Under the pieces are notes generated by a model that ran no database searches, was not told the origin of the DNA, and saw nothing but the letters and a program-made list of their open reading frames with translations. The translations under genes and the position numbers were made by a program. A stretch of DNA of 63,815 bases, filler included, from Corallochytrium limacisporum Hawaii (taxonomy: Eukaryota; Protista; Pluriformea), in the NCBI GenBank assembly GCA_002811645.1. It is 5 parts of 5 records of this genome, joined end to end, with 100 filler letters (N's around TTAATTAATTAA, not from the genome) between each part and the next. Parts side by side here need not be neighbours in the genome. Positions count along the whole stretch, not along the records: positions 44,456 to 56,296 come from PDIP01000139.1; 4 more parts are not named here. One strand, given 5' to 3'. Positions 21,391-62,768 of this stretch are shown piece after piece. Position 1 is the stretch's first letter; every line of letters starts with the position of its first letter.

Positions 21391-21490
21391 NNNNNNNNNN
21401 NNNNNNNNNNNNNNNNNNNNNNNNNNNNNNNNNNTTAATTAATTAANNNNNNNNNNNNNNNNNNNNNNNNNNNNNNNNNNNNNNNNNNNN
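21391..21490. other. Artificial scaffold-joining linker
   Basis: N44 + TTAATTAATTAA (stop codons in all six frames) + N44. Confidence 0.95.
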
Positions 21491-41205: not shown

Positions 41206-42966
41206 ATGAAAGTCTCCAGTGGCAAAGAGAATTTGGCAACGGCGAACAACAGTCCATGTCAATATCATCATGGAGGTGCTCTGCTGATCGAGAACTTCAG
41301 CCTTGCACACGGGGGCCGAGTGTTGTTTCGATCATCAGACCTCTGCCTTAAACATGGGAGAGTGACAGGTCTTGTTGGCATCAACGGAGCAGGAAAAACA
41401 TCTTTGGCCAAGGTACTCGCATCCAAACAGATTGAAGGATTTCCAAGCCATTTAAGAGTACAGTATCTATCCGCCTCGGACTCTTCACTGGATAAAGTCC
41501 AATTGATGCAGACACCTGTTGAATACATTCAATCACAGGTACATCAACGTTTAGACCAGGTACAGGAACAAATCGATGAGTTGGAACATGACATTGACCG
41601 AAACTCTTTCCCGGAGGAGATGTTGGAAGATGCCACCAACCGTCTTTCAGATCTGTATGATCTTCAGGAGACCTTATCCGATAGAATTCAAGTAGAGATG
41701 GACGATGCTGTTGCACAGATTGGTCTAGTAGAACACATGCACAAGAGTCTGTCCGCTCTATCCAGCGGCTGGCGATACAAATGCCAACTGGTGTCTACTC
41801 TGTTGGTCCATCCAGAACTGTTGATTGTAGATGAACCTTCGTACCTAGATGAAACTGCTATTGAATGGCTTGTTTCTCAATTGAATAGAACAGCACAAAC
41901 AGACAAGGCTATGGTCTTGCTGATCTCGCATAAAGAGTCGCTGTTGGAAACGGTGTGCGACGAAATCCTTTACATCAATGCGGCCAACCAAACATTGACG
42001 TTGTACCATTGTAGTTATTCAACATTCCGGGCCACGCATGAGGCAGAGTTGCAGAGTGCAGCAAGGACAATATCCAGCACTCAAGAAAAAGCACAGGTTG
42101 CAGAGCAGTCATTGAAGAAGGTACAATCGCAGCTAAAGAAACGGGAACAAAATACGAAAACCCTTACCACACAAAATGCCGACCAGCGGTTCATAAAAGG
42201 GAAGAGTAAGGAATCGAAACAAAAGGCTGACAAGTCCGCCGCAGCAAAATTGAGACAATCAAAACGTGACTTGGAACAGCTTGAAAGCATGAAACGCGCG
42301 GCCCAGCGAGAGCAAGTGAAGCCGCTCCATATAGATGGCATGCCTGCTGATGGTACAGTTGCAGTTTCTCTTCACGGAGTCGGTGTCGCTTATGATGGTG
42401 GATGGGTCTTCAGAAATGTGGAGACATCTATGGAAACCACGGATCGTATTTTGCTTACAGGCCCCAACGGATGTGGCAAAAGTACACTGGTGAAGGTGAT
42501 TCTTGGTGAAATGGAACCCACTGAAGGGCACGTTGTGCGCAAGGGGACCTATCTCTACTTTCCACAGACTTGCCTAAGCAGCCTAATCTCAGAAAACGGT
42601 AGCCAGATTGCAAAAGATTTCCTAGGAGACAACATGACAGAGACCATGGCACGGACTGTTCTTGGCGCATTTGGAGTGGCTGGTGACTTGGCGTTGCATC
42701 CAATTGCGTCTTTGTCGGCTGGGCAGCGGGTCCGTCTCTGGCTAGCGAAACAATTACAGCACCATCCCACTCCCTCACTGCTTGTCCTTGACGAGATTTC
42801 CGAAAATGTCGACATCGAAACGAGGGACTCTCTCATCGAAATGATGGCAACATTTGGAGGTGCGGTCCTGATGGTTTCCCATGATCCCGATTTTTGCTCG
42901 GCCTTTAACTATACAAAGACCTGGAACCTGGGGCCAAGAGGCGTCAAAGTCAGCTTTGCTGATTAA
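41206..42966 (+). CDS. ABC-F family ATPase (two NBDs, no TM) with an extended inter-ABC linker
   Basis: NBD1 has GINGAGKT, LSSGW, LLIVDEP and ISH. NBD2 has GPNGCGKS, LSAGQ, LLVLDE and VSHD. NBD1 carries a helical arm insertion. Confidence 0.92.
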   Translation: MKVSSGKENLATANNSPCQYHHGGALLIENFSLAHGGRVLFRSSDLCLKHGRVTGLVGINGAGKTSLAKVLASKQIEGFPSHLRVQYLSASDSSLDKVQLMQTPVEYIQSQVHQRLDQVQEQIDELEHDIDRNSFPEEMLEDATNRLSDLYDLQETLSDRIQVEMDDAVAQIGLVEHMHKSLSALSSGWRYKCQLVSTLLVHPELLIVDEPSYLDETAIEWLVSQLNRTAQTDKAMVLLISHKESLLETVCDEILYINAANQTLTLYHCSYSTFRATHEAELQSAARTISSTQEKAQVAEQSLKKVQSQLKKREQNTKTLTTQNADQRFIKGKSKESKQKADKSAAAKLRQSKRDLEQLESMKRAAQREQVKPLHIDGMPADGTVAVSLHGVGVAYDGGWVFRNVETSMETTDRILLTGPNGCGKSTLVKVILGEMEPTEGHVVRKGTYLYFPQTCLSSLISENGSQIAKDFLGDNMTETMARTVLGAFGVAGDLALHPIASLSAGQRVRLWLAKQLQHHPTPSLLVLDEISENVDIETRDSLIEMMATFGGAVLMVSHDPDFCSAFNYTKTWNLGPRGVKVSFAD

Positions 42967-44355: not shown

Positions 44356-44455
44356 NNNNNNNNNNNNNNNNNNNNNNNNNNNNNNNNNNNNNNNNNNNNT
44401 TAATTAATTAANNNNNNNNNNNNNNNNNNNNNNNNNNNNNNNNNNNNNNNNNNNN
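44356..44455. other. Artificial scaffold-joining linker
   Basis: N44-TTAATTAATTAA-N44. Confidence 0.95.
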
Positions 44456-45306: not shown

Positions 45307-46653
45307 TTAAAATCCCATGTGGGTGGCTGCTTCGCGTCGCTGCTGCCATGAGTTCTTGTTCACACCACAGGTACCATCACTTCCACACGGGTTACCGTTA
45401 CTGCATGGGTGGTCATCATCACAGCGATGTCCTTTAAAGTCACGCTTGCGAAGGATCAAGTCATCCACGGCATATTTCGCCTCACATAGAATGAATTCGG
45501 AGTCACCAATGTTCACGTACTCAGTAGCATAGAGGTCGTCTAGGTCCTTGCGAATCTGCAATGTACCCTTGTCATCCACCTTAAACAAGGGGGAAAAGTT
45601 TTCAAAATTGTCGGAACTGGGGACGTAATCCAGTGGGGTGAACCAGGTGTCATCATCGACGGTCACATTTTGGCCCTTCATAGCAGCAACGTAAGCATCA
45701 AAAATTCCTTCCGCGGACATGGCGATGGTGGTATTGACCTTGGCTGCATCTGGAAGATTGCCAGCTGTGAAGAAGTAGTAATCTCCATACGCTTGCCACT
45801 TTTCAGATTTGTTGGACATGACAAGACCAACCTTGTTTTCGTAGTCGTGTTCGTTGAGAGCCCATTCTCCACCACAGGTGGCTCCAAAATGGTCCATCAG
45901 TGCATGCCTGGGAACACGGGAGTGACCAGTGGCCCACTGATCGCTGAGGAAGTGATCACCAAATGCATTGATCATGTATGCTTCCTTTAGTCCATTCTCA
46001 TCGTAGTTCCACCCGGCTTCAATCGCAGTCCTCACGGCAAGCTTTCTCATAGCCCGCCAAGCCTTTTCGGCATCACCATCATCCCCAAAATGATCGAGAT
46101 TGTGGGTCTGCAGAGTGAGCCAAGAGGAGAGTTCCTCATTGCGGCCCAGTCCGGAAAGGAACAAGTGTATGTAGTCGTTGGGCCAGTCCTTGCCAGGATC
46201 CTCCCCAGCCGCGAGAGCCGCCCACACATGTTCCTTTTGTGCTTCAAAAAGCTTGTTGATAATGAAATTCTGGTATTTCTCTGAGCCAAAGCCGTATTGA
46301 TTTCCGTCGTGCTCGATCTGATAGAAGGTGTTCCAATACAACTGCGCCTGATCCTCCATGTCTTGGTCATCCTGTTTGGTATCACTCAAAGGATCTGTTG
46401 GCAAGCCCACATAATCAGGAATCGCCAGCACATCCCCGTAGGTCACGTCACCAACTCCTGGGAGAGATGCTAGAGGGTAATTTCCAGCAATATGAGTCTC
46501 AGGTGGGGACGTTGGATCCTTCGGATCCGAGAGAAACTTGAGAGTGACCCCGTCGCCAATCCCTTTGTGTTCCACCGATGCAAAGGCGCGTACATGCGTG
46601 GAAACAGTAAGAGCCAAGGCCACCGAAGAGTTGATAAAGTTGTTGAGCTTCAT
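45307..46653 (-). CDS. Secreted Zn-metallophospholipase C of the Legionella PlcA/PlcB/PlcC / Pseudomonas fluorescens PC-PLC family
   Basis: Signal peptide ending at VRA/F, then FASVEHKGIG, TYGDVLA..DY.G, NLDHF, AYMINAFGDHFLSDQWATGHSRVPR, HDYEN..GL and WQAYGD. A small Cys-rich C-terminal module follows an RKR site. Confidence 0.85.
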   Translation of the reverse strand: MKLNNFINSSVALALTVSTHVRAFASVEHKGIGDGVTLKFLSDPKDPTSPPETHIAGNYPLASLPGVGDVTYGDVLAIPDYVGLPTDPLSDTKQDDQDMEDQAQLYWNTFYQIEHDGNQYGFGSEKYQNFIINKLFEAQKEHVWAALAAGEDPGKDWPNDYIHLFLSGLGRNEELSSWLTLQTHNLDHFGDDGDAEKAWRAMRKLAVRTAIEAGWNYDENGLKEAYMINAFGDHFLSDQWATGHSRVPRHALMDHFGATCGGEWALNEHDYENKVGLVMSNKSEKWQAYGDYYFFTAGNLPDAAKVNTTIAMSAEGIFDAYVAAMKGQNVTVDDDTWFTPLDYVPSSDNFENFSPLFKVDDKGTLQIRKDLDDLYATEYVNIGDSEFILCEAKYAVDDLILRKRDFKGHRCDDDHPCSNGNPCGSDGTCGVNKNSWQQRREAATHMGF

Positions 46654-48654
46654 GTTTCTTAATTTTTTGGCTTTTTTTTGTGGTGAGCTGCTCCTGTCCT
46701 TGATCCACAGCAGTCTCAGGTCTATTCCGGTGTTCCAAATACCCGACTGGTTCCACGATCGAAACTTCTGTGGGCGAAGTTTTCGACTTTATTGCGAATG
46801 GTAATTAAGATTCAGAACACAGGCTACGTTTCATGAATTGGACGTTCGAATCTGTGCCAGCAGGCATTACCAGGCATACGGCATGACACCCAACCTCTCC
46901 CGTGCACAGCATCCCCTTCCCCGCCCGCGTTAGGGGAATGTGGGGGCCAGTCCGATCCCTTTCGAATTATAAGAATATTAGGTGCCCCTTTGATATCTAC
47001 ACAATTTGCTGCGCACTCTCTCTCGTGGGGTGCTGCACCCCGAACTGTGACATTCGCCACTCAATGGCCACGATTCATGAGAATTTGTGCTTTGAGGGTT
47101 CCAAGCACAGTGACACCTGCGATGGCAGAGTGAGGAATTGGGTCGTCTTGTGTGGCAGGGGGCAATCGACCCAGGGGTGGCTGGCGTGTGCCAGTGTAGG
47201 ATCACACCTAGAAACCCAGGTCAGATCATTGGGTTTGCGCCCAAGTAATCATGGGAACACCAAGCTAGCACCTTCTACACAGGGATACTACAATGAGTTT
47301 GGTTGTTTCTTGCCCAGAACCACCCACGTACGCTGTCAAACAGTGATTCGGGAGTACGCACACCCCAGTAGTGGAGTATTCAAAGCAACCGAAAAGTAGT
47401 AGCGGTACTCATACCTGAGGCTTTGCAAATGCCTACTTTGCCGCAGTTCAGGCCGAAAGGGTTGTTAGATTGGCAAGTGGGCGCTCTCCATGGAATTCAT
47501 TCTCCAATAATAAAACTATGGGGATCCCTTTTGCTCTGACCAATGGACCGCGGTCATGCTCTGGCACGCCGGTGTGAATTCCAGCACCAGGGTCTCTGGA
47601 AAATGACACCTACACAGATTCTCCCCCGCAAAATATCTCTCCCATAACAATGTTCGAAACGACACCATTCCCTATATTGTCACCGCGTAAATCAATGCGA
47701 GGGCGCGCAAAAGCATCATGGAAGGAAGGACGAAAGCAAGCTTGAGGTTTTCTATGTGTGTGGAAAAATCACCCAGTCCACACGTTAAGGCATCCAGGAG
47801 ATGATATGCGGACGGAACACTGAAAACGTCACTCCTACACGTTGGTTGGCCAGGAGCATTTTGTGTAAATGTACGCAAAGCATTGGAGTGTACCATATAA
47901 TCAATATTGTGTTGGTTGTGCTTTGTCATACCAGTCTCGGAGTACCATTGTTACGTGTCTCTTGCAATCAAAAAAGGGAAGAAACAGCCAAACACTACCC
48001 AACTAATGGCCAGGATCCATGATGAGTGTCAGGAGACGTGAAAAGCGCGTCAGGAAAGGGGGGGGTTTTGGGCCTCCCCAAGGAGAGTAGTTGGAGCCTG
48101 TAGTGAGCTAGAGGGAACAAAGCATTTAGACTTTATCCGCAGTGCGTCAAAATCCATTTTCTTCGGTGACGTAGAGGACGAAAATCCTAGAAATACAAGT
48201 GTTGCTTTCTCCTGCCTCTGGTGGCGGACCCCGGTTGAATTCCTTTTGCCCGTGGCCAGGTTGACGCACTCTGCAGTAGTTTCGGAGTATACCGTCCTCA
48301 GTACATGAGTAATGTGAATACCAACCTCGTTTCAATAAAAGATATCGCAATTTTGCTCAACATAGTGTTTAAATCAACATGATTCGCCATCGCGATCGCC
48401 TCTTCTTGTATGTAAAACCCAGCAAACTTGTACTGAACATTCGTTATGTAATTGAATATATAATGGATATGAGGGACTCATATAATTGTCCAGCAAGGAG
48501 GGTAATCATGCGGACTTTGGATATACTACTTACATGTCCCCAATGGTCCATCCCGACTTCCAATTCCGCTCCCAAGCGGCTGCTGTCAGAAACACAACGC
48601 TCACAATCCATAGGAATCATGAAGCCGGCGCTGTATAGTCAAATCGATTGAAAT

Positions 48655-49003
48655 CAGAGGGGTGCTCCAACAGCTGTCAGACAAATTTCAACCGGTTTCC
48701 TCGCCTATTCCTGCGGCTATGGAAGGGGGCTGTAAGAACGACCAGCAGCGAATACCGATCGCAGTGAAACGCAAGAAGGGTTCAGGCAGGCCAAAGAAAG
48801 GGTCTCAACGTGCTCGTAGAAAAGACTTTGCAAGACGTCTTCACGTTGTCATTCTATTGAACACACTTGATTTTCGTAAACTGCTGTCGCTTGTATATAT
48901 CTTTGGCAACTGTCTAATGTTGCGGGACTATTGGGGTCGACCCGGGAGCTATTACTGTACTATCGAGTCGTACGTGACAAAAAATCAACACCCTTCAACC
49001 TGA
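48655..49003 (+). mobile_element. Decayed Tc1/mariner transposase N-terminal (bipartite HTH) relic
   Basis: Across frameshifts: GVLQQLSDKF / LRLWKGA (HTH1), VKRKKGSGRPKK (GRPR-like linker), FRK / TAVAC / ISLATV (HTH2). No DDE region or TIRs were recognised. Confidence 0.45.
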
Positions 49004-49817
49004 ATCTCGGCCACCTGAACTCCGCACTGATTCGACGCAAAAATTACGACACGACGCACTCCGAGAACCCCCTTGGCTTGCGCTGCGGAGAGTTTGATGC
49101 TAAGTTTGTACGAGAATTTGCCGTTTTTGGACTTTTTCTCGAGACTTTCCTTTCTGTGCTTTCGTTAGAACTCCAATACTGCAACCATGGGACTACGAAG
49201 CTCGTGAACCAATTGTCGAGACAGAGCTGGCGTGAACTGGCGGCAAACACGACACACCACTAGGACTGGCATTTGTACTGAAGATTTTCAGCATTTGTCA
49301 CAGTATTCTTCAAGTTATCGTTTTGACCGCATGTGGCGATAAGTAATACCCCTCTTAATAGATCAATTCCGTTTCTAGAGTCGGAAGCAGGACACAGGCG
49401 GGCCTAGGCATTTACTCTGCTGACTTACCCTGTTGCTACGCGTATGCATCAGAGGCCAATTGGTCGGACTTCATGCGTCACCGCTCATTGCAAAACTGTT
49501 CAGTTCGCAAATTGTTTCTCCGGAAGGCAAGCAGAATTCCTAAAATACCTTTAAGGCGGTTTCTGTTGGGGGTTGCAATTCGGTGGGGAATGCCTTTCGG
49601 GGGTCGTTTCGCAATTCGCTTTTGCGTGTAACTTCGAGTAAGATTCACCGCATCGTCTTCCTCCAGTGTGGTGCTGTTGCTGACTTAAACAATCTTCCTG
49701 TGAACAGAAAGATGGTATTTGAGGGGAATAAAGATTGTGCTCACTGAAGAAAAGGAACCATATCGATCACCCAACTAATTCTGAGTTAAAGAAGAACGAA
49801 GTGTTACAGATCTCATC

Positions 49818-51317
49818 ATGAAGAGTAGAGCACTAGCTACCATATTTGCAGGCGCTACAGGAGCGATCATGGTCAATGCCGCTCCTACTGAGACCAGCTG
49901 GGCTGTTGGTGCTGTCAATGCGACCAATCATGACCTCTCCGCCGGTGGTCGTATCGTCAACAGCGCGAATATTTACGCCAGGAATGATTATGACTGGCCG
50001 GTGAACGGTACCACCTCCATGGCGATCAATGTCACACAGTCAGAATGCAACCTTAAAAACGAAACCATCACCATCAATTTCGACGAGGAGCAAGGTCATG
50101 TCACTTTCATGGTTGACTACATTTACCAAGGAGATGTTTGTAAGATTGTGTTTGTGTCAGCAGAGTCACACGGAGGACCACGGGGCTTCGGCCTCCCGGA
50201 CGATATTGTTCTGGCCATGAGCAAAACCTATTATTCGCAGTCGGTCAATCAATACCTTACCTACATTGAAACATGCACAAAGGATGAGTACATCAACAAG
50301 CAGTCTTGCGGCAACATAGATTTGACGTCTTTTGTAGCTGGTGGCATAAACATTCCTGACACCATCTTTGGCATTGTTGTCGCCACCAACCATGATTTAA
50401 CAGCGGGAGGCAAGATCTCTAACAGCGTAGATTTCTACGAGATAGACCATTACGCTTGGCCAACGGATGGCTCCCTGTACATGATGATTGCGACCGAAAC
50501 CACCACACAATGCAACAAGCAGAACCAAACCATTGATATTGAATTCGAGGAGGGTAAAGGTGACGTCAGTTTTCTGGTCGACTACGTATACGACGGAACT
50601 GGGAACGGCTTTGGATGCACTACCGTGTTTGTAGATGCTATTGAAAAACGGGGCCCAAAAGGTAAACCGATTGCGCACGATGTCGTCATGGTCATGAGCC
50701 AAGTCGATTTCAACACCTCCCCTCCCGCGACCTATATCCAGACATGCAAAAAAGCCGATTTCAAGCAAGAGCTTGCATGTGGCAACATTGCTGCCAACAA
50801 TTTGGGTGGAGGTATCCACGTGCCTTCTCACATCCCAACCACAGGTCACGTTATGGCCAGCAACAAAGATGCCACAATTTTTGGATGGATTGACTTCAAC
50901 GACGCGTTGTTCTACAATCAGACTGAATATCAATGGCCCTCTCAGGCATCATACGGTGTATTGAGTACCACCATGTCCATTCGTGCTCAGAAAGATCTGT
51001 GTAAGACTTTCAAGGATCAGGAAATTATCGTCAGATTTGCAATGAATGAAGGTAGCGTCACCTTCACCGTAGACTACGACTGGGTTCATGGCGGTTGCGT
51101 GCCAATCTTCAAAAAGGTTACCATCCAGGATGGCCCAAGCGGCTCCGCCATTAACCCTGACGTCGTCATGGTTATGACCCATCCAATGAAGACTGCTGGT
51201 GGTGTACCCATTGTGCACATTTCCGACTGCTCCACTACGGAGTTTACTCAGAATGGCGGATGCCCGAATGCTCCCACCGACAGTGTGGCCGGAGGTCTCA
51301 ACCTTCCACCACTATAA
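49818..51317 (+). CDS. Secreted protein composed of three tandem ~155-aa beta-rich domains of unrecognised family
   Basis: Signal peptide. Each repeat follows G.V.A(T/S)N.D...G.I...Y....Y.WP...C.....I.I.F....G.V.F.VDY...C...F...GP.G.....D.V..M...I..C.......C.N......GG...P. Many N-glycosylation sequons. Confidence 0.9.
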   Translation: MKSRALATIFAGATGAIMVNAAPTETSWAVGAVNATNHDLSAGGRIVNSANIYARNDYDWPVNGTTSMAINVTQSECNLKNETITINFDEEQGHVTFMVDYIYQGDVCKIVFVSAESHGGPRGFGLPDDIVLAMSKTYYSQSVNQYLTYIETCTKDEYINKQSCGNIDLTSFVAGGINIPDTIFGIVVATNHDLTAGGKISNSVDFYEIDHYAWPTDGSLYMMIATETTTQCNKQNQTIDIEFEEGKGDVSFLVDYVYDGTGNGFGCTTVFVDAIEKRGPKGKPIAHDVVMVMSQVDFNTSPPATYIQTCKKADFKQELACGNIAANNLGGGIHVPSHIPTTGHVMASNKDATIFGWIDFNDALFYNQTEYQWPSQASYGVLSTTMSIRAQKDLCKTFKDQEIIVRFAMNEGSVTFTVDYDWVHGGCVPIFKKVTIQDGPSGSAINPDVVMVMTHPMKTAGGVPIVHISDCSTTEFTQNGGCPNAPTDSVAGGLNLPPL

Positions 51318-51657
51318 GCAACAAATTGATACGAATTTGAATACTCGGTGCCAACCTCTGTCACAGAATTCAAGAAATTTGAGACAAATGTAGGCTTCAC
51401 AATAAAGGAGGTCTTTTCTCATTTGTAGATAAAATGGGTCGGCCATGTCCCTGCGTTCAGGGTGCCTCAAAGTATAATCCTATTGTTCATCTTGTATCCG
51501 GCATGTGATTTCGGTATTAGAGACAGTATGGGCAACAATTTGTAATAATCTACTTAGTGCATCGGGGGAGGAACTTACTTGGCTATTCTGACGTCGGCGT
51601 AGTGTAATCACCTTCGCCGTCACTGCGAAGGTAACCATCTTTTGGGCCGCTGCGTTG

Positions 51658-51778
51658 CGATGCCTGGGGATCGCTCACTTACTTGTTCCCAGTCCCTACT
51701 ACACTCGCCCCCCTCCCGTCCGATGCCTGGGGAACGTTAACTTTACGTGTTCCCGGTCCCCCTTACACTCTCCCGTCG
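51658..51778. repeat. Diverged ~63-bp tandem duplication
   Basis: cgatgcctgggga...tgttccc.gtccc...tacactc...ctcccgtc at 51658 and 51721. Confidence 0.75.
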
Positions 51779-51803
51779 GGAGTGTGAAATATTAATACCC
51801 AAA

Positions 51804-52391
51804 GCAAAATACCTAAATCTTAGGTGTCCAGCGTCCGTATTGGGACCACTGATCATTTTCCTTGCAATCGCATGCCAAACTAGGGGAGGGTGTATCAGGT
51901 AGGAGGACGTGGTGCCGGTCTTGTATAGGCGAGAAAACTTGGGTATCCCTTGGGGTGTGGTTATAATGTAGAATTGCTTTAAACTCTGATAGAATCTATA
52001 ACTTACAAACGTGACAAATACTGGACTATGGCCAAATATGACCTATAACGGTACCAAACATACTGGCACATCGGCGGTGTAATTGAGCGAAATACCTAAA
52101 TCTTAGGTGTCCAGAGTTCGCATTTGAACCACTGATCATTTTCCTTGCAATCGCATGCCAAACTAGGGGAGGGTGTATCAGGTAGGAGGAAGTGGTGCCG
52201 GTCTTGTATAGGCGAGAAAGCTTGGGTATCCCTCGGGGTGGTTATAGAGTAGAATTTCTTTAAGCCCCTGATGGAATCTATACCTTACAAACGTGACAAT
52301 ACTGGACTATGGCCAAATATGACCTATGACAGTACCCAAACATACCGGAACATCGGCGGTGTGATTGAGCAAAATACCTAAATCTTAGGTG
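51804..52391. repeat. ~283-bp tandem repeat (2 full units plus the start of a third), each unit bounded by the hairpin ACCTAA-ATC-TTAGGT
   Basis: acctaaatcttaggtg at 51811, 52094 and 52376, with the intervening sequences clearly alignable. Confidence 0.92.
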
Positions 52392-52679
52392 CACCTCGTC
52401 ACGCACCGATTGGTTACGGAAACAAGCCAGGCGCAGAACCATCATCTGAGCTTTCCATCAGTTGTGCAGAGGCGATTGTGTATAGATTTCTATCGACGGC
52501 GCCAGCTCTGAAGGGTGGCCTCCTGTATAGTAAGACCACAGGTGGATCTGTATTCAACCAGGAAGATCACGGCAGGTACTTAAAGATCAATGGCCTTTTG
52601 GCCAAGAGTGATGAACAAAGACGAATACAGATAGTTCGAGTAGATAGCATCTCAAAAAGCAACCGAATTTCTATTCAAC

Positions 52680-53615
52680 ATGACGAACACGTTCCTGTTT
52701 GCCCTCAGTGCACTGGCTGCCTCCACGCTCGCTCTTCCTTCTACCTCCGAGGGATTCCAAATCGAAGAGAGAATCCGCAGAGCCAGTGATGGTGGTGATG
52801 GACCTCCCAACTGCACAATTGAAAATCCTGATCTTGTCCATGGAGGAGGTCTTCCCTGTCTGCTTGCATTTACCCAATATGCGCATGACAGTATGATGAT
52901 CCTTCCACCCAACTTCATGAATACGATGTGCGCGAACAAGGGTGCATTTGCTGATGCTCCACTTTGCTGGTTTTATGACCCTCGCCCGATCATCGTTACG
53001 GTTAGCGTCATTGGCGAAGGTGCAGTCGAAACGTATACGGACGGCAAACTTAGAGCGACTACTGACAGCGACTGCGGGGGCGAAGGTTGCGTGGTCAAAA
53101 CAGAGACAGGAGCCTGGGCAATGACATCAACTTCACTCTTGTTGCTTGAGTACGGCACAACCTTCGTAATCAAGCCTGCACCAGGCTACACCTACAATAT
53201 CGTCGAACACCCATCAATCCAAGAGACCAATGGATTCTCGGGACCCGTCCTGAGGCACACGACTTGGACCAAGGAGAACAAGGACGAACGACTTACCGTG
53301 GAATACGTGCCCATCGAATACTCATGTGGCGACTTCAAGACTGAATTCGGATCTGTCTGTGGCGAGTCTCGCATTTATGATGAAACCAAGGACGCCGTTG
53401 AGTGTGGCTTCATTGACGAATGTTCCGTTCAATATGACAACATGTGCTGCATGGAAATGCCTCTGCCTGCATATACCTGTGCCACCTACAGTTTTGAGTT
53501 CGAATCTACCTGTGGCGAGGGTCGCATCAATGACAGCACCAAGGCTGCCGTTGAGTGTGGCAACAAGAAAGATTGCCGCAAAAACTACGACAATCTGTGC
53601 TGCATGGATGCCTGA
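52680..53615 (+). CDS. Secreted protein with a propeptide, an unknown beta-rich domain and two C-terminal 6-Cys modules
   Basis: Signal peptide MTNTFLFALSALAASTLA and an RIRR processing site. Two repeats of the form Y(S/T)C-x10-C-x14-C-x5-C-x7-CC. Confidence 0.88.
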   Translation: MTNTFLFALSALAASTLALPSTSEGFQIEERIRRASDGGDGPPNCTIENPDLVHGGGLPCLLAFTQYAHDSMMILPPNFMNTMCANKGAFADAPLCWFYDPRPIIVTVSVIGEGAVETYTDGKLRATTDSDCGGEGCVVKTETGAWAMTSTSLLLLEYGTTFVIKPAPGYTYNIVEHPSIQETNGFSGPVLRHTTWTKENKDERLTVEYVPIEYSCGDFKTEFGSVCGESRIYDETKDAVECGFIDECSVQYDNMCCMEMPLPAYTCATYSFEFESTCGEGRINDSTKAAVECGNKKDCRKNYDNLCCMDA

Positions 53616-53826
53616 GTATACCTGTGCTTACTACATGACCGAGTTGGTAATCTTATCTTTGAAAACAACATTGTGAGTCTGCGACTTCAGCACCGACTCA
53701 AGCATCGCTTCACAATATATGATGATAATGATCAAAATTGTTCACTTTACTGCATATGTAATCATCATGATGATCATTTATCACTATTTATGTGACCGTG
53801 ACCATGTTGTCGTCGCGGTTGTGTAC

Positions 53827-55179
53827 CTATGCCTCTATCTGATTCTCCCAGTACTCCCGTGTTTTTTTAAGCTGTTCCACACGCTCGGTCAGAGGCGGGA
53901 AGAGCGCGACACCCATGTCGTACCACGGTGCAGCCAAGTTGTCGATAAAGCCTATGGAAAAACGAGGAATGTCGGGAGAGTCACAATCGCTGAAAGCACT
54001 GCATTGCATTCCCAATGCGACTTCTCGATCACCCTGTCTCAATAGCTCGTCCACAATCCGATCAGTCCAGACCTTTGCGAGGTCAAGTGGGCGAGTCGGA
54101 TTGCTAATGTCGCCCAGCTGCATAATCAGTTGCAAACCAAGCGTGCGATCTTGTGTGCTGCTGGGTTCGAAAGGTGTGCTCAAGGTCTCGTACTGTCTCA
54201 TAGTGTCGGCGTAATATGCCGTGTCGGTGGCCAAAATGATTTCAATGCAGTTTCCACGAAACTGGCGTTTCTCAGCTGGATTCAGGTTTTCCCATATCGA
54301 CGATTCCGGGTTCTCAAGCAGTCCAAAGAGAGCTGCCGTATGGTGATTTTCCAGCGGGCTGCGATCATTCCAACGCAACGCCCAGGGATCCCAGGTCTCG
54401 ATCAGGAAGTTGTTCGTCAAACCAGGATGCCCCGCGTCGTGCAGCATTGCGCTGGTCAACAGGGCAAAGACCTCCAAGGACGTGAACTGCTTGTCAATCA
54501 CATACTCCGTTAGCATCAAGAATACTGCCTGCATAACATCGACAGCGTGATAAAAAGAGTGATACGGATTATCTCGGTAAAGCCACTGAGCCCTGAGCAC
54601 CAGATTGGTGAGTTTCTCGGCATCCACTTTGTAGACGTCCATGAAGTCAAAAGCGTGGAACATAGCATCTGCATACTTATACAGATCTGTCTCCGGGACG
54701 CTGAACACATCAAAGGACCAGTTTTGTAGTTCCTCCAGCAGAGTGGAAATTTCGACCCCGGCAGCACGGCGGAGGGCGGGTACAGATTCAGGCTCGGGAG
54801 AACCTAAGGATTCTTCTCCACTGGACTTGCTGCGCACGACTATGGTACCGTCGAAGAAAATATCATAGCCGTCGGGAGCGCGATGCTTGAAACCGCCATC
54901 CAGGTCATCACAGTTAAAGAGAATGTACTGCTCACCGGTCTTTAGATCAACAGCTTGGACAAAGCAGCCCTCATTTTTGTTCATAGAATCACCCATGACA
55001 GAAGGAGGGTCCGCGTCGATAATCGTCAGCTGACTTGTGCTGCCGTCCTCCATGTATAAAGGTAACCGCTCACCAATCTCGAATTGATTCATTTGGCGGT
55101 AAGAAGGTGGTAAAGCAAGACCAGCGTCTGACAGGAGGGTGACTGCGCATGCCACAGCCGCAACATAGTTGAAGATCAT
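53827..55179 (-). CDS. Class I (PDEase_I, HD-type) cyclic-nucleotide phosphodiesterase with an N-terminal signal peptide
   Basis: NWSFDVF, YRDNPYHSFYHAVDV.Q, HDAGHPGLTNNF, LENHH, ILATD, DISNP, QGDRE and GFID. Signal peptide is MIFNYVAAVACAVTLLSDAGLA. Confidence 0.92.
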   Translation of the reverse strand: MIFNYVAAVACAVTLLSDAGLALPPSYRQMNQFEIGERLPLYMEDGSTSQLTIIDADPPSVMGDSMNKNEGCFVQAVDLKTGEQYILFNCDDLDGGFKHRAPDGYDIFFDGTIVVRSKSSGEESLGSPEPESVPALRRAAGVEISTLLEELQNWSFDVFSVPETDLYKYADAMFHAFDFMDVYKVDAEKLTNLVLRAQWLYRDNPYHSFYHAVDVMQAVFLMLTEYVIDKQFTSLEVFALLTSAMLHDAGHPGLTNNFLIETWDPWALRWNDRSPLENHHTAALFGLLENPESSIWENLNPAEKRQFRGNCIEIILATDTAYYADTMRQYETLSTPFEPSSTQDRTLGLQLIMQLGDISNPTRPLDLAKVWTDRIVDELLRQGDREVALGMQCSAFSDCDSPDIPRFSIGFIDNLAAPWYDMGVALFPPLTERVEQLKKTREYWENQIEA

Positions 55180-55789
55180 GGCACCAAGGTTCGTTGACCG
55201 TCTTCACCTAAGTCATGCACTAAAACTATGAAATTACTATTACATAGGAATTTTCGAGTCTAATTTTGGGTCAGTCACAAAATACATTTGTGGGTCAAAC
55301 ATTAACATCTAAGATCTTTCTAACTAGACCAATAAGTACCTATTCAGCCCGTTATGCTATGTGTGCTATTCAATAATGAGTGCCTATTTATGAACAAGGT
55401 ATCCAAGACCAGACCAAGCATCTCTACATACTTCCTGAACCCGAGTATTACGGTGATTTGTATTGCTCATGATTGGTTAATATGATGATTGGTGTATAGA
55501 GAGAGGTTGCTGAAGCCGTGCCCAAGGCAGTCGATCGAGGAAGGGACAAAGACTATTGCTATGGTTATTTTATGGTTATCATTTTCATCAGCAAAAAGAT
55601 TCAAACCTTGCGCCAGCATTAGTGCTTGCGCCAACTGCGGTGGACTCCCCTGTAACTCTTCCTTTTCTCTCTCTCTCTCTTACCCTCCAAGAAATCTAAC
55701 AATCATCACCGCGACCGGGGCGCATCACCATTCACTTTCCATTTAGGGATCATTCATGATATGATTCGGTGCATTGCTATACTTTCCAT

Positions 55790-56265
55790 CATACTAAGGC
55801 TTTCACGACTTGTTTTCCATATATCAAAGGAGCCAATCACTGGTGGCTCTAGACCTGAACCAAGCCCTAATAGTCATGCGACTCCATCGGACCCGGCCAG
55901 CCTATCAGAATGTGGCAGTCCATCAGGTCCATGAGCCCCATCAGCCCCCGACGACCCTGCAGATTCTTCACATCCTTTGGCTCCCGTAACGACGGCAAAC
56001 CATTCAACCCGTATCGAACCTGATCACTATGGTGAAAATGAAAATTAACGCAGCTCCCGTATCTGCTGACGAAGGAGGTGGCCAAAATGACTCGCATCCG
56101 ACAGGCTTCTTAGCATTGTGGGAGCCGTTGTCGTTGGTGTCACCTCACAGATAACATACCAGTCTCATCGACCAACACTTCCACGGCGACCAACTCGGGG
56201 GATCACGATAGTCCGGAAGGCCATAGGATCGGGCCAAGTGACACGAATGACTTCAAAGTGCAACG
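55790..56265 (-). mobile_element. Highly decayed Ty3/gypsy reverse-transcriptase/connection-domain relic cut by the telomere
   Basis: Ordered broken-frame fragments VEVLVDE (cf. VxVYVDD), VNFHFH (cf. VxFLGH), EPKDVKNLQGRRGLMG (cf. P..VK.LQ.FLGL.G) and EPPVIGSFDIWK (cf. .PVL..FD..K). Confidence 0.5.
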
Positions 56266-56296
56266 TTAGGGTTAGGGTTAGGGTTAGGGTTAGGGT
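56266..56296 (+). repeat. Telomeric repeat (TTAGGG)5 at the scaffold end
   Basis: Five perfect TTAGGG units run into the scaffold end, with the G-strand oriented 5'->3' toward the end as expected for a chromosome terminus. Confidence 0.9.
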
Positions 56297-56396
56297 NNNN
56301 NNNNNNNNNNNNNNNNNNNNNNNNNNNNNNNNNNNNNNNNTTAATTAATTAANNNNNNNNNNNNNNNNNNNNNNNNNNNNNNNNNNNNNNNNNNNN
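56297..56396. other. Artificial scaffold-joining linker
   Basis: N44-TTAATTAATTAA-N44. Confidence 0.95.
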
Positions 56397-58623
56397 GTGC
56401 CAAGCTACCAGCATTAATGTCTGCACACGTCGCGCGGAAATTGCAGCACTGATCTGGAGTACAGTTTGTGTTTACATTGTCGTCCCCGAAGCAGTCCGTG
56501 ACACCAGAGTAGAAGCCAGTCTGTTCATCTCCCGACACGGCATCGCATAGACCATCGGTACCAAAGCCGGCACTCTGACATGATTGGAAGTAAGTACAGC
56601 AATCAGACAGCTCGCAATCGACAAGCTCCTCCTCACTGTCCCCAGTGCATACATTTGTGCCAGTGTACACCGCGGTGTCCGCTGCATTGGGACCCTTTCC
56701 AGCACATTCCCCCGGGCTGGTTAATCCAAGGGAGCTGCACGTGTGGGTAAACTCACAGCAGTCCTCTTCGGTACAGCTGTCACCACCCGCATCGCCGTCA
56801 CCAATACAGTTATTCCGGCCTGAATAAGTGGCCGTCTGGCCTGGCTCGCCGACTGGGGCACATGCGGCATCGCTATCCAATCCGAGACTCTGGCAAGTCT
56901 CCTCGAACCTACAACAATCCTGCAACTGGCAATTCACTACGACACCGGTGTCTTCACAGATTCCTTGGTTCTCATTGATGAAGATACCGGCCTTGTTATC
57001 ACTGGCTTGCGTCTGGCACTGTGCGGTGTTGCCGGCATTAAGGTCGACACACGTCACATGGAAGTCGCAGCACTCGTACTCGGTGCAGTCAGCATTCACA
57101 CCGTCCACCAAGCAGTCCGTGACACCATTGTAGAAGCCACTCTCTCCAGTTGGTGCCACCTCACTGCAGGCACCATCGTTGTCGAAGCCAGCAGTGCTGC
57201 AGGTCCTATAGTACGAACAGCAATCATCAGGGACGCAGTCAATGGGCGTACCACCACCATCTGAACAGCCAGATGCGCCTGTGTAAACAGCATTGTCCCC
57301 TACGAAAGGAGCAAATGAGGCGCACTCGTCGTCACTGCCCCGCTCAAGAGATTCACAGGTCGCCGCAAGGCTGAAAGAGCAGCATGTGTCCTCAGTGCAG
57401 TCTTCACCATCGCATGCGCCTGTCGCAGGTCCAATAAACAAGGCGATATAGCCAGGATCAGCCAGCGCCTGGCACTGTGCGGTGTTGCCGGCATTAATGT
57501 CGACACACGTCACATGGAAGTCGCAGCACTCGTACTCGGTGCAGTCAGCATTCACACCGTCCACCAAGCAGTCCGTGACACCATTGTAGAAGCCACTCTC
57601 TCCAGTTGGTGCCACCTCACTGCAGGCACCATCGTTGTCGAAGCCAGCAGTGCTGCAGGTCCTATAGTACGAACAGCAATCATCAGGGACGCAGTCAATG
57701 GGCGTACCACCACCATCTGAACAGCCAGATGTGCCTGTGTAAACAGCCTTGTCCCCTACAAAAGGAGCAAATGAGGCGCACTCGTCGTCACTGCCCCGCT
57801 CAAGAGATTGACAGGTCGCCGCATCGACGATAGAGCAGCATTTATCGAGAGTGCAGTCAACACCACCGACGTCTATCTCCGTGCATTCGCCTTCCACAGG
57901 TCCAATGAAAGTTGCAATCTTGCCAGTACCGGCTCGCGACTGACACTCTTCTGTGTTTCCCGCATTAATGTCTGCACATGTGACCTTGGGCTCCGGGTAG
58001 AAGAGGCAGCAGTCTGAAGGTTCGCAATCGCCTTCACAGACACCGTCTCCTCCAATGTATTCACCCACGTCCCCAGAGGAGGCGGCCTGTGTACACTTGA
58101 GATTGTCCGTCAACTGGAGCGTTGTGCATGTCGCGGGCTGCCGGCAGCAGTCCTCAGCGTAGCAATCCCGAGGGTTACCGCTGGTATCCTTGCAAGTCTT
58201 GCCTCCCAGAAAGACCTCAGTGTCAGGACAGAGGGCGCCCTCCAAGAAGTCATTCAGACTGTCACATGTGTCCGCAGCCCGGCAACATTGAGTAACTGAA
58301 CAGCTTCCATCAATGCAATCAACCTCGCTGTTTTTTGAAAACGGCTTCTGTCCTCCGGTCTCTTCCCGGCAGATCTCATCCGTAAACACATGACGGCATT
58401 TGGGAACGTTGGTACAGCAATTTTGAAGGCAGTTTCCACCAACATTTGGAAAGCAGAATCTACCTTCCAAGGCATACGGACGATCTCCTTCACTGGCAGA
58501 AGAACACTGCTCATCCGTCCCTAAGTTTACGGCATCGTCATCGCACGAATGAGCGGTAGTAGAACTGGCCATCAAGGCCACCACTGCGGCCCCTATTGAG
58601 ACAGTCCCGCTAACTAATCTCAT
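56397..58623 (-). CDS. Secreted or surface protein made of tandem ~50-aa 6-Cys modules; 3'-truncated at the scaffold end
   Basis: Signal peptide, then about 14 modules, mostly of the form TC-x10-C...C...C-x4-CC. The frame stays open up to the gap, and the stop in the ORF track is the artificial linker. Confidence 0.92.
57013..57823. repeat. Near-identical intragenic duplication (355 bp, period 456 bp = 152 codons)
   Basis: 57013-57367 and 57469-57823 differ at only a few bases. Confidence 0.93.
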
Positions 58624-62668: not shown

Positions 62669-62768
62669 NNNNNNNNNNNNNNNNNNNNNNNNNNNNNNNN
62701 NNNNNNNNNNNNTTAATTAATTAANNNNNNNNNNNNNNNNNNNNNNNNNNNNNNNNNNNNNNNNNNNN
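62669..62768. other. Artificial scaffold-joining linker
   Basis: N44-TTAATTAATTAA-N44. Confidence 0.95.

What the first reader, a model, noticed from the sequence alone, without database searches (positions are those of the whole stretch)
53827..55179. Secreted class I phosphodiesterase lacking the invariant glutamine
Seen: signal peptide, a ~115-aa beta-rich pro-region ending in RR, then a full catalytic domain with no TM helix. The metal ligands (YH...H, HD, D of DISNP) are intact, but canonical SQxGFID reads FSIGFID (Ser codon at 53956-53958) and EEFF reads DELL. Known: class I PDEs are normally intracellular (Dictyostelium PDE4 is a membrane-anchored exception), and this Gln hydrogen-bonds the purine of cAMP/cGMP. 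Inference: a soluble extracellular PDE with a remodelled nucleobase pocket, possibly acting on non-canonical cyclic nucleotides (cCMP/cUMP) or broad substrates. That would imply extracellular nucleotide signalling or scavenging.
Basis: partly seen in the sequence, partly recalled or inferred. Interest (0 to 1): 0.78.

Follow-up and report, generated by a model that had tools for sequence, protein, structure and literature searches.

The report
Exported copy of RegA-like cAMP phosphodiesterase
In what is likely a single-celled relative of animals, a chromosome-end copy of a gene for a predicted intracellular cyclic-nucleotide-degrading enzyme carries a predicted export signal and likely destroys cAMP outside the cell; its 'missing' glutamine is shared with the parent gene and with a relative that is likely the published cAMP-specific RegA, so it is no sign of an exotic substrate.

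Summary
In detail: an intact 450-aa class I PDE with a signal-peptide-like start, all metal ligands, Ser408 at the 'invariant' Gln and Leu379 at PDE4D Phe340. The inference drawn from the Gln does not. The nearest relative (62% identical, sister on two trees, present in the same sequencing runs) is a 1210-aa RegA-like PDE with no signal peptide, source-named Clim_evm16s134 (read as Corallochytrium), and it already has both Ser and Leu. The Gln is replaced in 62 of 264 related domains, including dictyostelid RegA (Ala) and the Acanthamoeba protein matching the published cAMP-specific RegA (Val; KM 19 uM). What is unusual is the re-routing: a duplicate 1.1 kb from a telomere, beside three other signal-peptide genes, has lost the receiver region, gained a leader and an orphan beta-rich module, evolved about 2.5-3 times faster yet under constraint, and acquired private changes (Cys393/Cys399, three H-loop Trp, Met-to-Thr320, His-to-Tyr323). 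Best reading: a soluble extracellular, low-affinity, cAMP-preferring PDE (0.55). Secretion and activity are untested. My paper searches listed no soluble secreted class I PDE, and the scan's notes held no earlier case.

The parts
53827..55179 (-). Intronless ORF, 450 aa (P0001): leader + beta-rich module + linker + class I PDE domain
   Evidence: covered by one X4 contig (52704-55213) and, except the first 9 and last 14 codons, by one X3 contig (53870-55152), with no splice joint
55114..55179 (-). Predicted signal peptide, residues 1-22 (h-region 6-16; small residues at -3/-1 before Leu-Pro); absent from the parent paralog
   Evidence: hydropathy heuristics; helix 2-18 in the model; SignalP not run
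54820..55113 (-). Orphan beta-rich module, residues 23-120, with Cys72 and Cys90; origin unknown
   Evidence: strands 38-42, 48-56, 73-78, 84-89; no hit in Pfam, NCBIfam, ESM Atlas or fetched proteins; best fold match Z 4.3, not significant
54760..54819 (-). Low-confidence Ser/Glu/Pro linker with dibasic R137-R138 (54771-54766); possible convertase site, untested
   Evidence: RR is not in the parent
53830..54759 (-). Class I PDE catalytic domain, residues 141-450, 62% identical to paralog P0241; metal ligands intact
53956..53958 (-). Ser408 at the 'invariant' Gln position; shared with the parent paralog
54043..54045 (-). Leu379 at the PDE4D Phe340 clamp position; shared with the parent paralog
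53983..54003 (-). Copy-specific Cys393 and Cys399 in the M-loop; candidate disulfide (inferred)
   Evidence: 0 of 264 other domains have both, 0 of 264 have Cys at 399
54370..54393 (-). Copy-specific Trp263, Trp266, Trp270 in the H-loop region
   Evidence: 9 Trp in the domain is the highest of 227 domains of at least 280 residues
54211..54222 (-). Copy-specific Thr320 (Met/Leu in 240 of 264) and Tyr323 (His in 256 of 264) just after the conserved Thr-Asp
56265..56296 (.). TTAGGG-type telomeric array at the contig end, about 1.09 kb upstream of the start codon; followed by an N-spacer contig join
45307..53615 (.). Context: three neighbouring ORFs (45307-46653, 49818-51317, 52680-53615) with signal-peptide-like starts and no Pfam/NCBIfam family

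Best explanation
This gene is a chromosome-end duplicate of the catalytic part of the organism's RegA-like phosphodiesterase that lacks the parent's receiver region and carries a predicted signal peptide, so it is likely exported as a soluble, unregulated enzyme that would hydrolyse extracellular cAMP to 5'-AMP with modest affinity. Shown: the sister relationship to the paralog, the intact two-metal site, the shared Ser408/Leu379, the telomeric position, and constraint on conserved sites. Inferred: direction of the duplication, entry into the secretory pathway, disulfides (72-90, 393-399), possible release of the front module at RR, and cAMP preference. With Ser in place of Gln the base would be held mainly by stacking on Phe411 plus Asn360, as I infer for other Gln-less RegA-type enzymes. 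Whether the purpose is clearing a cAMP signal or scavenging nucleotide for an osmotroph cannot be told apart here.
For: Nearest of 1.84 billion representatives is P0241, 62% identical, E 2e-126, against about 26-41% for the rest of the best 150. It is sister with support 100 (FastTree, 249 rows) and 99 (IQ-TREE, 58 rows), inside a clade that also holds Acanthamoeba RegA (92). P0241 matches Acanthamoeba RegA over the C-terminal half of the receiver and the following helical region (E 7e-29). Its DNA appears as a diverged same-length piece in runs X1, X2 and X4 (I translated two 30-base loose ends by hand and they match P0241 residues 887 and 991 onward). P0500 (A. castellanii 'cAMP phosphodiesterase', 621 aa) has Val at the Gln site; the paper's 621-aa RegA hydrolyses cAMP, cGMP does not compete, KM 19 uM (PMC3906536). 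PDE5 Q817A loses cGMP affinity 60-fold and leaves cAMP kinetics unchanged (as cited in PMC3069055). Constraint: the copy lost the consensus residue at 6 of 62 conserved columns against 17 of 48 variable ones, p 0.0017. No stop or frameshift in the divergent X4 contig. The species is reported at 0.0 introns per kb of coding sequence (PMC5560861), which makes an upstream exon unlikely.
Against: No secretion predictor was run and the leader has no basic n-region. No activity data. Six otherwise conserved positions changed only in the copy (N208S, L266W, Y270W, H323Y, K354Q, R399C), plus M320T next to the pocket; His at 323 is kept in 256 of 264 domains and Tyr in none, which could cut activity or shift substrate. 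Leu379 is rare (4 of 264) and neither this enzyme nor its parent has been assayed; Acanthamoeba RegA keeps Phe there, so it is an imperfect proxy. Polymorphism against X4 is 6 nonsynonymous to 3 synonymous, pN/pS 0.57, not distinguishable from neutral (p 0.42). RNA status of X3/X4 is the tool's guess. That P0500 is the assayed protein is inferred from species, length, name and architecture; no call linked AGC82269.1 to KC012947.
Confidence: 0.55

Rival explanations
1. Secreted and active, but shifted to another or broader substrate (cGMP, cyclic pyrimidines, cyclic dinucleotides or another phosphodiester). The shift would come from the copy's private changes (Thr320, Tyr323, H-loop Trp, Leu380, Asn414, M-loop Cys pair) acting on an already permissive Gln-less pocket, not from the Gln loss itself.
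For: Branch 0.50 vs 0.17 and 0.38 vs 0.15 relative to the parent, with metal ligands kept. Private changes cluster in loops that border the pocket. The domain is more acidic than the parent's (-23 vs -13).
Against: Purine-clamp Phe411, Asn360, Trp371 and Tyr206 are kept; Ser408, Leu379, Phe407 and Ala368 equal the parent; the S-x-G-F-I-D motif occurs in six other domains, five of them in proteins with a receiver hit. Acidity and Cys gains also fit plain adaptation to export.
Confidence: 0.2
2. Enters the secretory pathway but works inside the cell or on its surface (vacuole/lysosome, wall-bound through the beta module, or uncleaved signal anchor), or the hydrophobic start is not a working signal.
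For: The leader has no basic residue and was scored only by heuristics; the same filter passed 9 of 238 other Met-starting PDE proteins, several of which do not look like cleaved signals. An acidic hydrolase with a pro-like segment also fits a lysosomal enzyme (general knowledge).
Against: No second hydrophobic segment and no hydrophobic C-terminal tail; the C-terminus is not KDEL/HDEL-like; three adjacent genes have similar leaders.
Confidence: 0.13
3. A weak or dead enzyme: either a nucleotide-binding decoy or a subtelomeric duplicate in slow decay.
For: H323Y, N208S and Y270W at columns conserved over 90%; pN/pS not below neutral with significance; telomeric position.
Against: All 12 columns invariant in a 96-sequence alignment are kept, by definition including this protein; losses avoid conserved columns (p 0.0017); the frame is open after about 0.4-0.5 substitutions per site and in a second, divergent data set.
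Confidence: 0.12

Closest known systems
RegA (receiver + class I PDE) of Dictyostelia and Acanthamoeba castellanii (PMC3906536, PMC11988041; P0500, P0421, P0418)
   Same: Same PDE clade; 36% identity to P0500 over 322 residues; no Gln at the 'invariant' site (Val in P0500, Ala in dictyostelid orthologs, Ser here); bulky hydrophobic residue just before it.
   Different: RegA is cytosolic and phosphorelay-activated. This copy has no receiver region, has a leader and an orphan beta module, Leu for the clamp Phe, and private Cys/Trp/Thr/Tyr changes.
Paralog P0241 (source name Clim_evm16s134), 1210 aa
   Same: 62% identical catalytic domain; shares Ser408, Leu379, Phe407, Ala368; same organism by read evidence.
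   Different: No signal-like start; long low-complexity N-terminus with a partial, degenerate receiver match (residues 424-464); keeps Met, His, Tyr, Arg where the copy changed.
Dictyostelium PDE4 (class I, extracellular-facing; PMC11988041 passages)
   Same: A class I catalytic domain placed outside the cell to clear cAMP.
   Different: DdPDE4 is modelled with two transmembrane helices; this protein has none after the leader. DdPDE4 was not fetched or placed on my trees.
Dictyostelium PDE1/PdsA and PDE7 (secreted class II PDEs)
   Same: Functional analogue: soluble secreted cAMP phosphodiesterases.
   Different: Unrelated class II enzymes; this one is class I.
Mammalian PDE4/PDE9 catalytic domains
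   Same: Fold and two-metal site, about 30-33% identity.
   Different: They keep the Gln and are intracellular; not the nearest clade.

Membership tests
Class I cyclic-nucleotide PDE (PF00233) | Profile match above curated cut-off | tested here: met
   223 bits vs cut-off 24.8, profile 1-237 of 238
Class I cyclic-nucleotide PDE (PF00233) | Zn/Mg ligands and catalytic His | tested here: met
   H207, H211, H247, D248, H251, E277, H280, T318, D357
Class I cyclic-nucleotide PDE (PF00233) | All-helical PDE fold | tested here: met
   pLDDT mostly above 90 for residues 141-450; Foldseek E 2e-21 to PDE9/PDE4
Class I cyclic-nucleotide PDE (PF00233) | 'Invariant' purine-binding Gln | tested here: not met
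   Ser408; but the feature is not universal: 62 of 264 related domains have another residue, 15 a gap (set biased to this clade)
Class I cyclic-nucleotide PDE (PF00233) | Hydrophobic clamp | tested here: inconclusive
   Phe411 and Ile375 kept; Phe340 position is Leu, as in the parent
Class I cyclic-nucleotide PDE (PF00233) | Hydrolyses 3',5'-cNMP | not testable with these tools
   needs an enzyme assay
RegA (receiver-PDE) | Catalytic domain falls in the RegA-like clade | tested here: met
   deeper nodes inside the clade are unresolved, so one-to-one orthology with dictyostelid RegA is not shown
RegA (receiver-PDE) | N-terminal response-regulator receiver domain | tested here: not met
   no Pfam or custom receiver hit in P0001; derived from a RegA-like gene, not itself a RegA
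Classically secreted protein | Cleavable N-terminal signal peptide, no further TM helix | tested here: inconclusive
   heuristics positive, no basic n-region, SignalP not available
Classically secreted protein | No upstream coding exon | tested here: met
   in-frame stop 9 codons upstream; X4 contig runs unspliced through the ATG to 55213 with no joint listed (RNA status guessed, contigs only; 2 of 14 loose-end rows were not shown)
DdPDE4-type membrane-anchored ecto-PDE | Two TM helices | tested here: not met
   no hydrophobic window after residue 30

The most novel reading that the evidence does not exclude
A unicellular relative of animals has built a soluble, disulfide-stabilised, convertase-processed extracellular class I PDE by grafting a leader and a new beta module onto a RegA-like catalytic domain at a chromosome end, and its private pocket-side changes retune it to an extracellular cyclic nucleotide other than cAMP (cGMP, cCMP/cUMP or a bacterial cyclic dinucleotide), letting the cell erase or eat the signals of neighbouring microbes.
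Probability: 0.12. Interest if true: 0.8.

Novelty: new variant of a known kind. Interest (0 to 1): 0.42.

Why it matters
If the protein is exported and active, it would be a freely secreted class I PDE, a job that the Dictyostelium review assigns to class II enzymes and one membrane-anchored class I enzyme. It would point to an extracellular cyclic-nucleotide pool that matters to a close relative of animals, and a stable transfection method for this species is in print (search listing only). The by-product may be as useful: the 'invariant glutamine' of class I PDEs is dispensable across the RegA-like clade (at least 17 changes on the tree), so these enzymes are natural tests of how cAMP is selected without it. 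It may also explain why only 3 of 32 PDE inhibitors acted on Acanthamoeba RegA below 100 uM (figure legend; the link is my inference). The finding is a single lineage-specific duplicate, which limits its reach.

Tried and rejected
Assembly or sequencing error at the Ser codon: rejected. Gln loss as an innovation of the secreted copy: rejected, it is in the parent. Upstream exon or longer N-terminus: not seen. Horizontal transfer of the PDE: no support, nearest relative is the organism's own paralog and GC/GC3 (0.51/0.60 in the catalytic part) match neighbouring genes. A shared leader motif with the neighbour 52680-53615 (both read roughly L-A-L-P...F-x-I-x-E-R): shuffle p 0.02 with the signal included, 0.20 without, 12 comparisons made; not accepted. 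Origin of the N-terminal module: no hit in ESM Atlas, Pfam/NCBIfam, fetched proteins or the rest of the window; single-sequence model pLDDT 53, best VIA Z 4.3 to Tudor/SH3-like barrels, no match at Z 5 or more, treated as uninformative. No dedicated large-database search was run with the N-terminal module alone. pN/pS from 9 differences: inconclusive. The run search listed no holder on record as RNA; X3 and X4 are guessed RNA, and contig depth was not used to rank expression. X3 and X4 stop 61 bases apart (55152, 55213), so they give only a weak hint of the 5' end. No whole genome was held, so other paralogs, cAMP receptors, cyclases or ecto-nucleotidases of this organism could not be counted; laying at 80-85% likeness showed no second copy of the 5' part. 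Two GPCR papers gave no species-level statement on cAMP receptors in the passages seen. N-terminal half of a split receiver in P0241: not significant (E 0.21). Paper searches for precedent: (0 papers with Corallochytrium + phosphodiesterase); only listings were seen for most, and subscription papers are not in the library. The RegA alignment in the supplement of PMC3906536 could not be read and may already mark the Gln replacement.

Full report
What is there. Window 53827-55179 (-) is one open frame of 450 codons. It holds a complete class I PDE domain (PF00233, E 5e-66) whose model overlays PDE9 and PDE4. All metal ligands and the catalytic His are present. Ser408 (codon 53958-53956) sits where PDE4D has its purine-binding Gln and Leu379 where it has Phe340. 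PDE4D residue numbers are my labels, partly recalled; Phe340 and Phe372 are named in a passage of PMC13095499. No difference is listed at the Ser codon in any of the five runs whose pieces cover it, X1-X5; X1 and X2 may be the window's own source. The N-terminus has an uncharged hydrophobic stretch (6-16, mean 2.65) followed by G-L-A/L-P, and no later hydrophobic window. No secretion predictor was available. Residues 23-120 are predicted as a beta meander with Cys72 and Cys90, then a loose linker with R137-R138.

Setting. The start codon lies about 1.09 kb from a TTAGGG-type array at the end of a contig. The three ORFs inward of it all begin with signal-like stretches and match no Pfam or NCBIfam family, while further in lie long intronless housekeeping genes (SMC, SNF2-RING helicase, muniscin-like, ALG6/8-like). 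SMC2 is at most 43% identical to anything listed, with Capsaspora the best named hit. The nearest PDE relative carries the source name Clim_evm16s134, which I read as Corallochytrium limacisporum, a free-living osmotroph among the unicellular relatives of animals reported with 0.0 introns per kb of coding sequence (PMC5560861 passages). Two runs guessed to be RNA give unspliced contigs over the gene (53870-55152; 52704-55213) and no cover in the intergenic bins 47258-48439 and 55532-56300, where the DNA run continues. With an in-frame stop nine codons upstream, an upstream exon is unlikely.

Where it came from. Among 1.84 billion representatives the only close relative is P0241, 62% identical over the domain; the other best 150 are about 26-41%. 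P0241 is 1210 aa, has no signal-like start (it did not pass the filter), and resembles Acanthamoeba RegA also in the second half of the receiver and the following helical region (E 7e-29; custom receiver profile hit at 424-464; no Pfam receiver hit). Its DNA shows up as a diverged piece in X1, X2 and X4, so it is a paralog in the same organism. The two are sisters on both trees (100 in FastTree with 249 of 265 domains, 16 dropped as short or gapped at the Gln site and the three columns around that site left out; 99 in IQ-TREE with 58 chosen rows), inside the RegA-like clade. Since the outgroups are receiver-PDEs, I infer that the copy lost the regulatory part and gained the leader.

The glutamine. 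P0241 already has Ser at the Gln site and Leu at the Phe340 site, so neither change belongs to the secreted copy. Among 157 domains from the first representative set, 117 have Gln, 35 another residue and 5 a gap; in the enlarged set of 264, 187, 62 and 15. The second set is enriched because I searched with a Ser-bearing protein and holds a few near-duplicates. The state changes at least 17 times on the tree. Receiver-PDEs of Cavenderia and Acytostelium have Ala, Pigoraptor Ser, Basidiobolus Ala, Allomyces Gly, and Endostelium the same S-I-G-F-I-D as this protein. P0500, an A. castellanii 'cAMP phosphodiesterase' of 621 aa, has Val. PMC3906536 (passages) expressed a 621-aa A. castellanii RegA, the single RegA gene of that genome, and found cAMP hydrolysis, no competition by cGMP and KM 19 uM; equating the two is an inference from species, length, name and architecture. 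PMC3069055 (abstract and sections 12 and 14) reports that Q453E in PDE9 costs about 50-fold in cGMP efficiency and about 5-fold in cAMP, and cites PDE5 Q817A as leaving cAMP kinetics unchanged. Human PDEs hydrolyse cyclic pyrimidines too (PMC3544816 abstract). So losing the Gln predicts lower affinity and, if anything, cAMP preference; it does not predict cCMP/cUMP.

What is special to the copy. Its branch is 2.5-3 times the parent's. Losses avoid conserved columns: 6 of 62 at columns at least 70% conserved against 17 of 48 at columns under 50% (p 0.0017; the middle class, 8 of 33, was left out of the test). That argues for a working protein rather than a pseudogene. The private changes are telling. 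Trp appears at 263, 266 and 270; Met becomes Thr320 and a His kept in 256 of 264 domains becomes Tyr323. These, not the Gln, are the real grounds for a changed substrate or reduced activity. Against the divergent X4 contig there are 9 differences in the frame, 6 nonsynonymous, none at a metal or pocket residue, no stop or indel; pN/pS 0.57 is inconclusive.

Mechanism. Most likely the leader sends the protein through the secretory pathway; the beta module serves folding, tethering or latency and may be cut at RR; the unregulated domain uses its two-metal site to turn extracellular cAMP into AMP, either to clear a signal or to feed uptake (0.55). Rivals: retuned substrate (0.20), retained in a compartment or on the surface (0.13), dead or decaying (0.12). 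Export, processing, activity and purpose are all inferred.

Against what is known. It is a class I PDE of RegA-like ancestry but not a RegA (no receiver). The review PMC11988041 (passages) lists Dictyostelium's extracellular PDEs as two secreted class II enzymes and one two-helix membrane-bound class I enzyme. My searches (listings for most hits) showed no soluble secreted class I PDE and nothing on PDEs of this species; PMC7720076 (passages) and PMC13095499 still call the Gln invariant. The unreadable supplement of PMC3906536 may already show its replacement. A crude filter passed 9 of 238 other Met-starting PDE proteins for a hydrophobic start, so other exported or anchored cases may exist. 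The scan's own notes held no similar finding. Verdict: observation confirmed, interpretation partly supported, new variant of a known kind, interest 0.42.

Noticed in passing
P0241 (paralog, not in the window), residues about 56-86 and 398-470: The parent's receiver looks degenerate: Ser aligns to the conserved Asp of the RegA receivers, only the C-terminal half scores, and a possible N-terminal half lies about 310 residues earlier (E 0.21, not significant). It may be a pseudo-receiver cut loose from phosphorelay.
   Followed up: partly
P0500, P0421, P0418 and other RegA-like PDEs: The 'invariant' Gln is replaced by Ser/Thr/Ala/Gly/Val/Glu/Asn/Met in many protist and early-fungal PDEs, usually after a bulky hydrophobic residue (50 of 62 non-Gln vs 60 of 187 Gln domains, relatedness not corrected).
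   Followed up: partly
window 45307-53615: Three signal-peptide-like orphan ORFs in the last 11 kb before the telomere; 49818-51317 looks like three internal repeats and 52680-53615 ends in two Cys-rich repeats (seen by eye).
   Followed up: no
window 56341-58623 (-): Across the contig join: a 760-codon frame with a signal-like start, 11% Cys, long internal repeats and no Pfam hit, running into the N spacer.
   Followed up: no
window 41206-42966 (+): Soluble two-domain ABC ATPase (ABC-F-like by architecture) with lower GC3 (0.48) than neighbouring housekeeping genes (0.57-0.64); origin not examined.
   Followed up: no
window 21391-21490, 44356-44455, 56297-56396, 62669-62768: Paired 44-base N runs; the one read at 56297-56396 encloses a TTAATTAATTAA spacer. 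They look like artificial contig joins, so neighbourhood across them should not be trusted.
   Followed up: partly
window 52704-55213: One X4 contig spans both the PDE and the convergent neighbour 52680-53615, which would fit overlapping 3' ends; a contig across two genes shows no single transcript.
   Followed up: no
P0321, P0383, P0292: Other PDE proteins with a hydrophobic N-terminus and no later strong TM window by my filter; P0321 also has Glu at the Gln site. Possible further exported or anchored PDEs.
   Followed up: no
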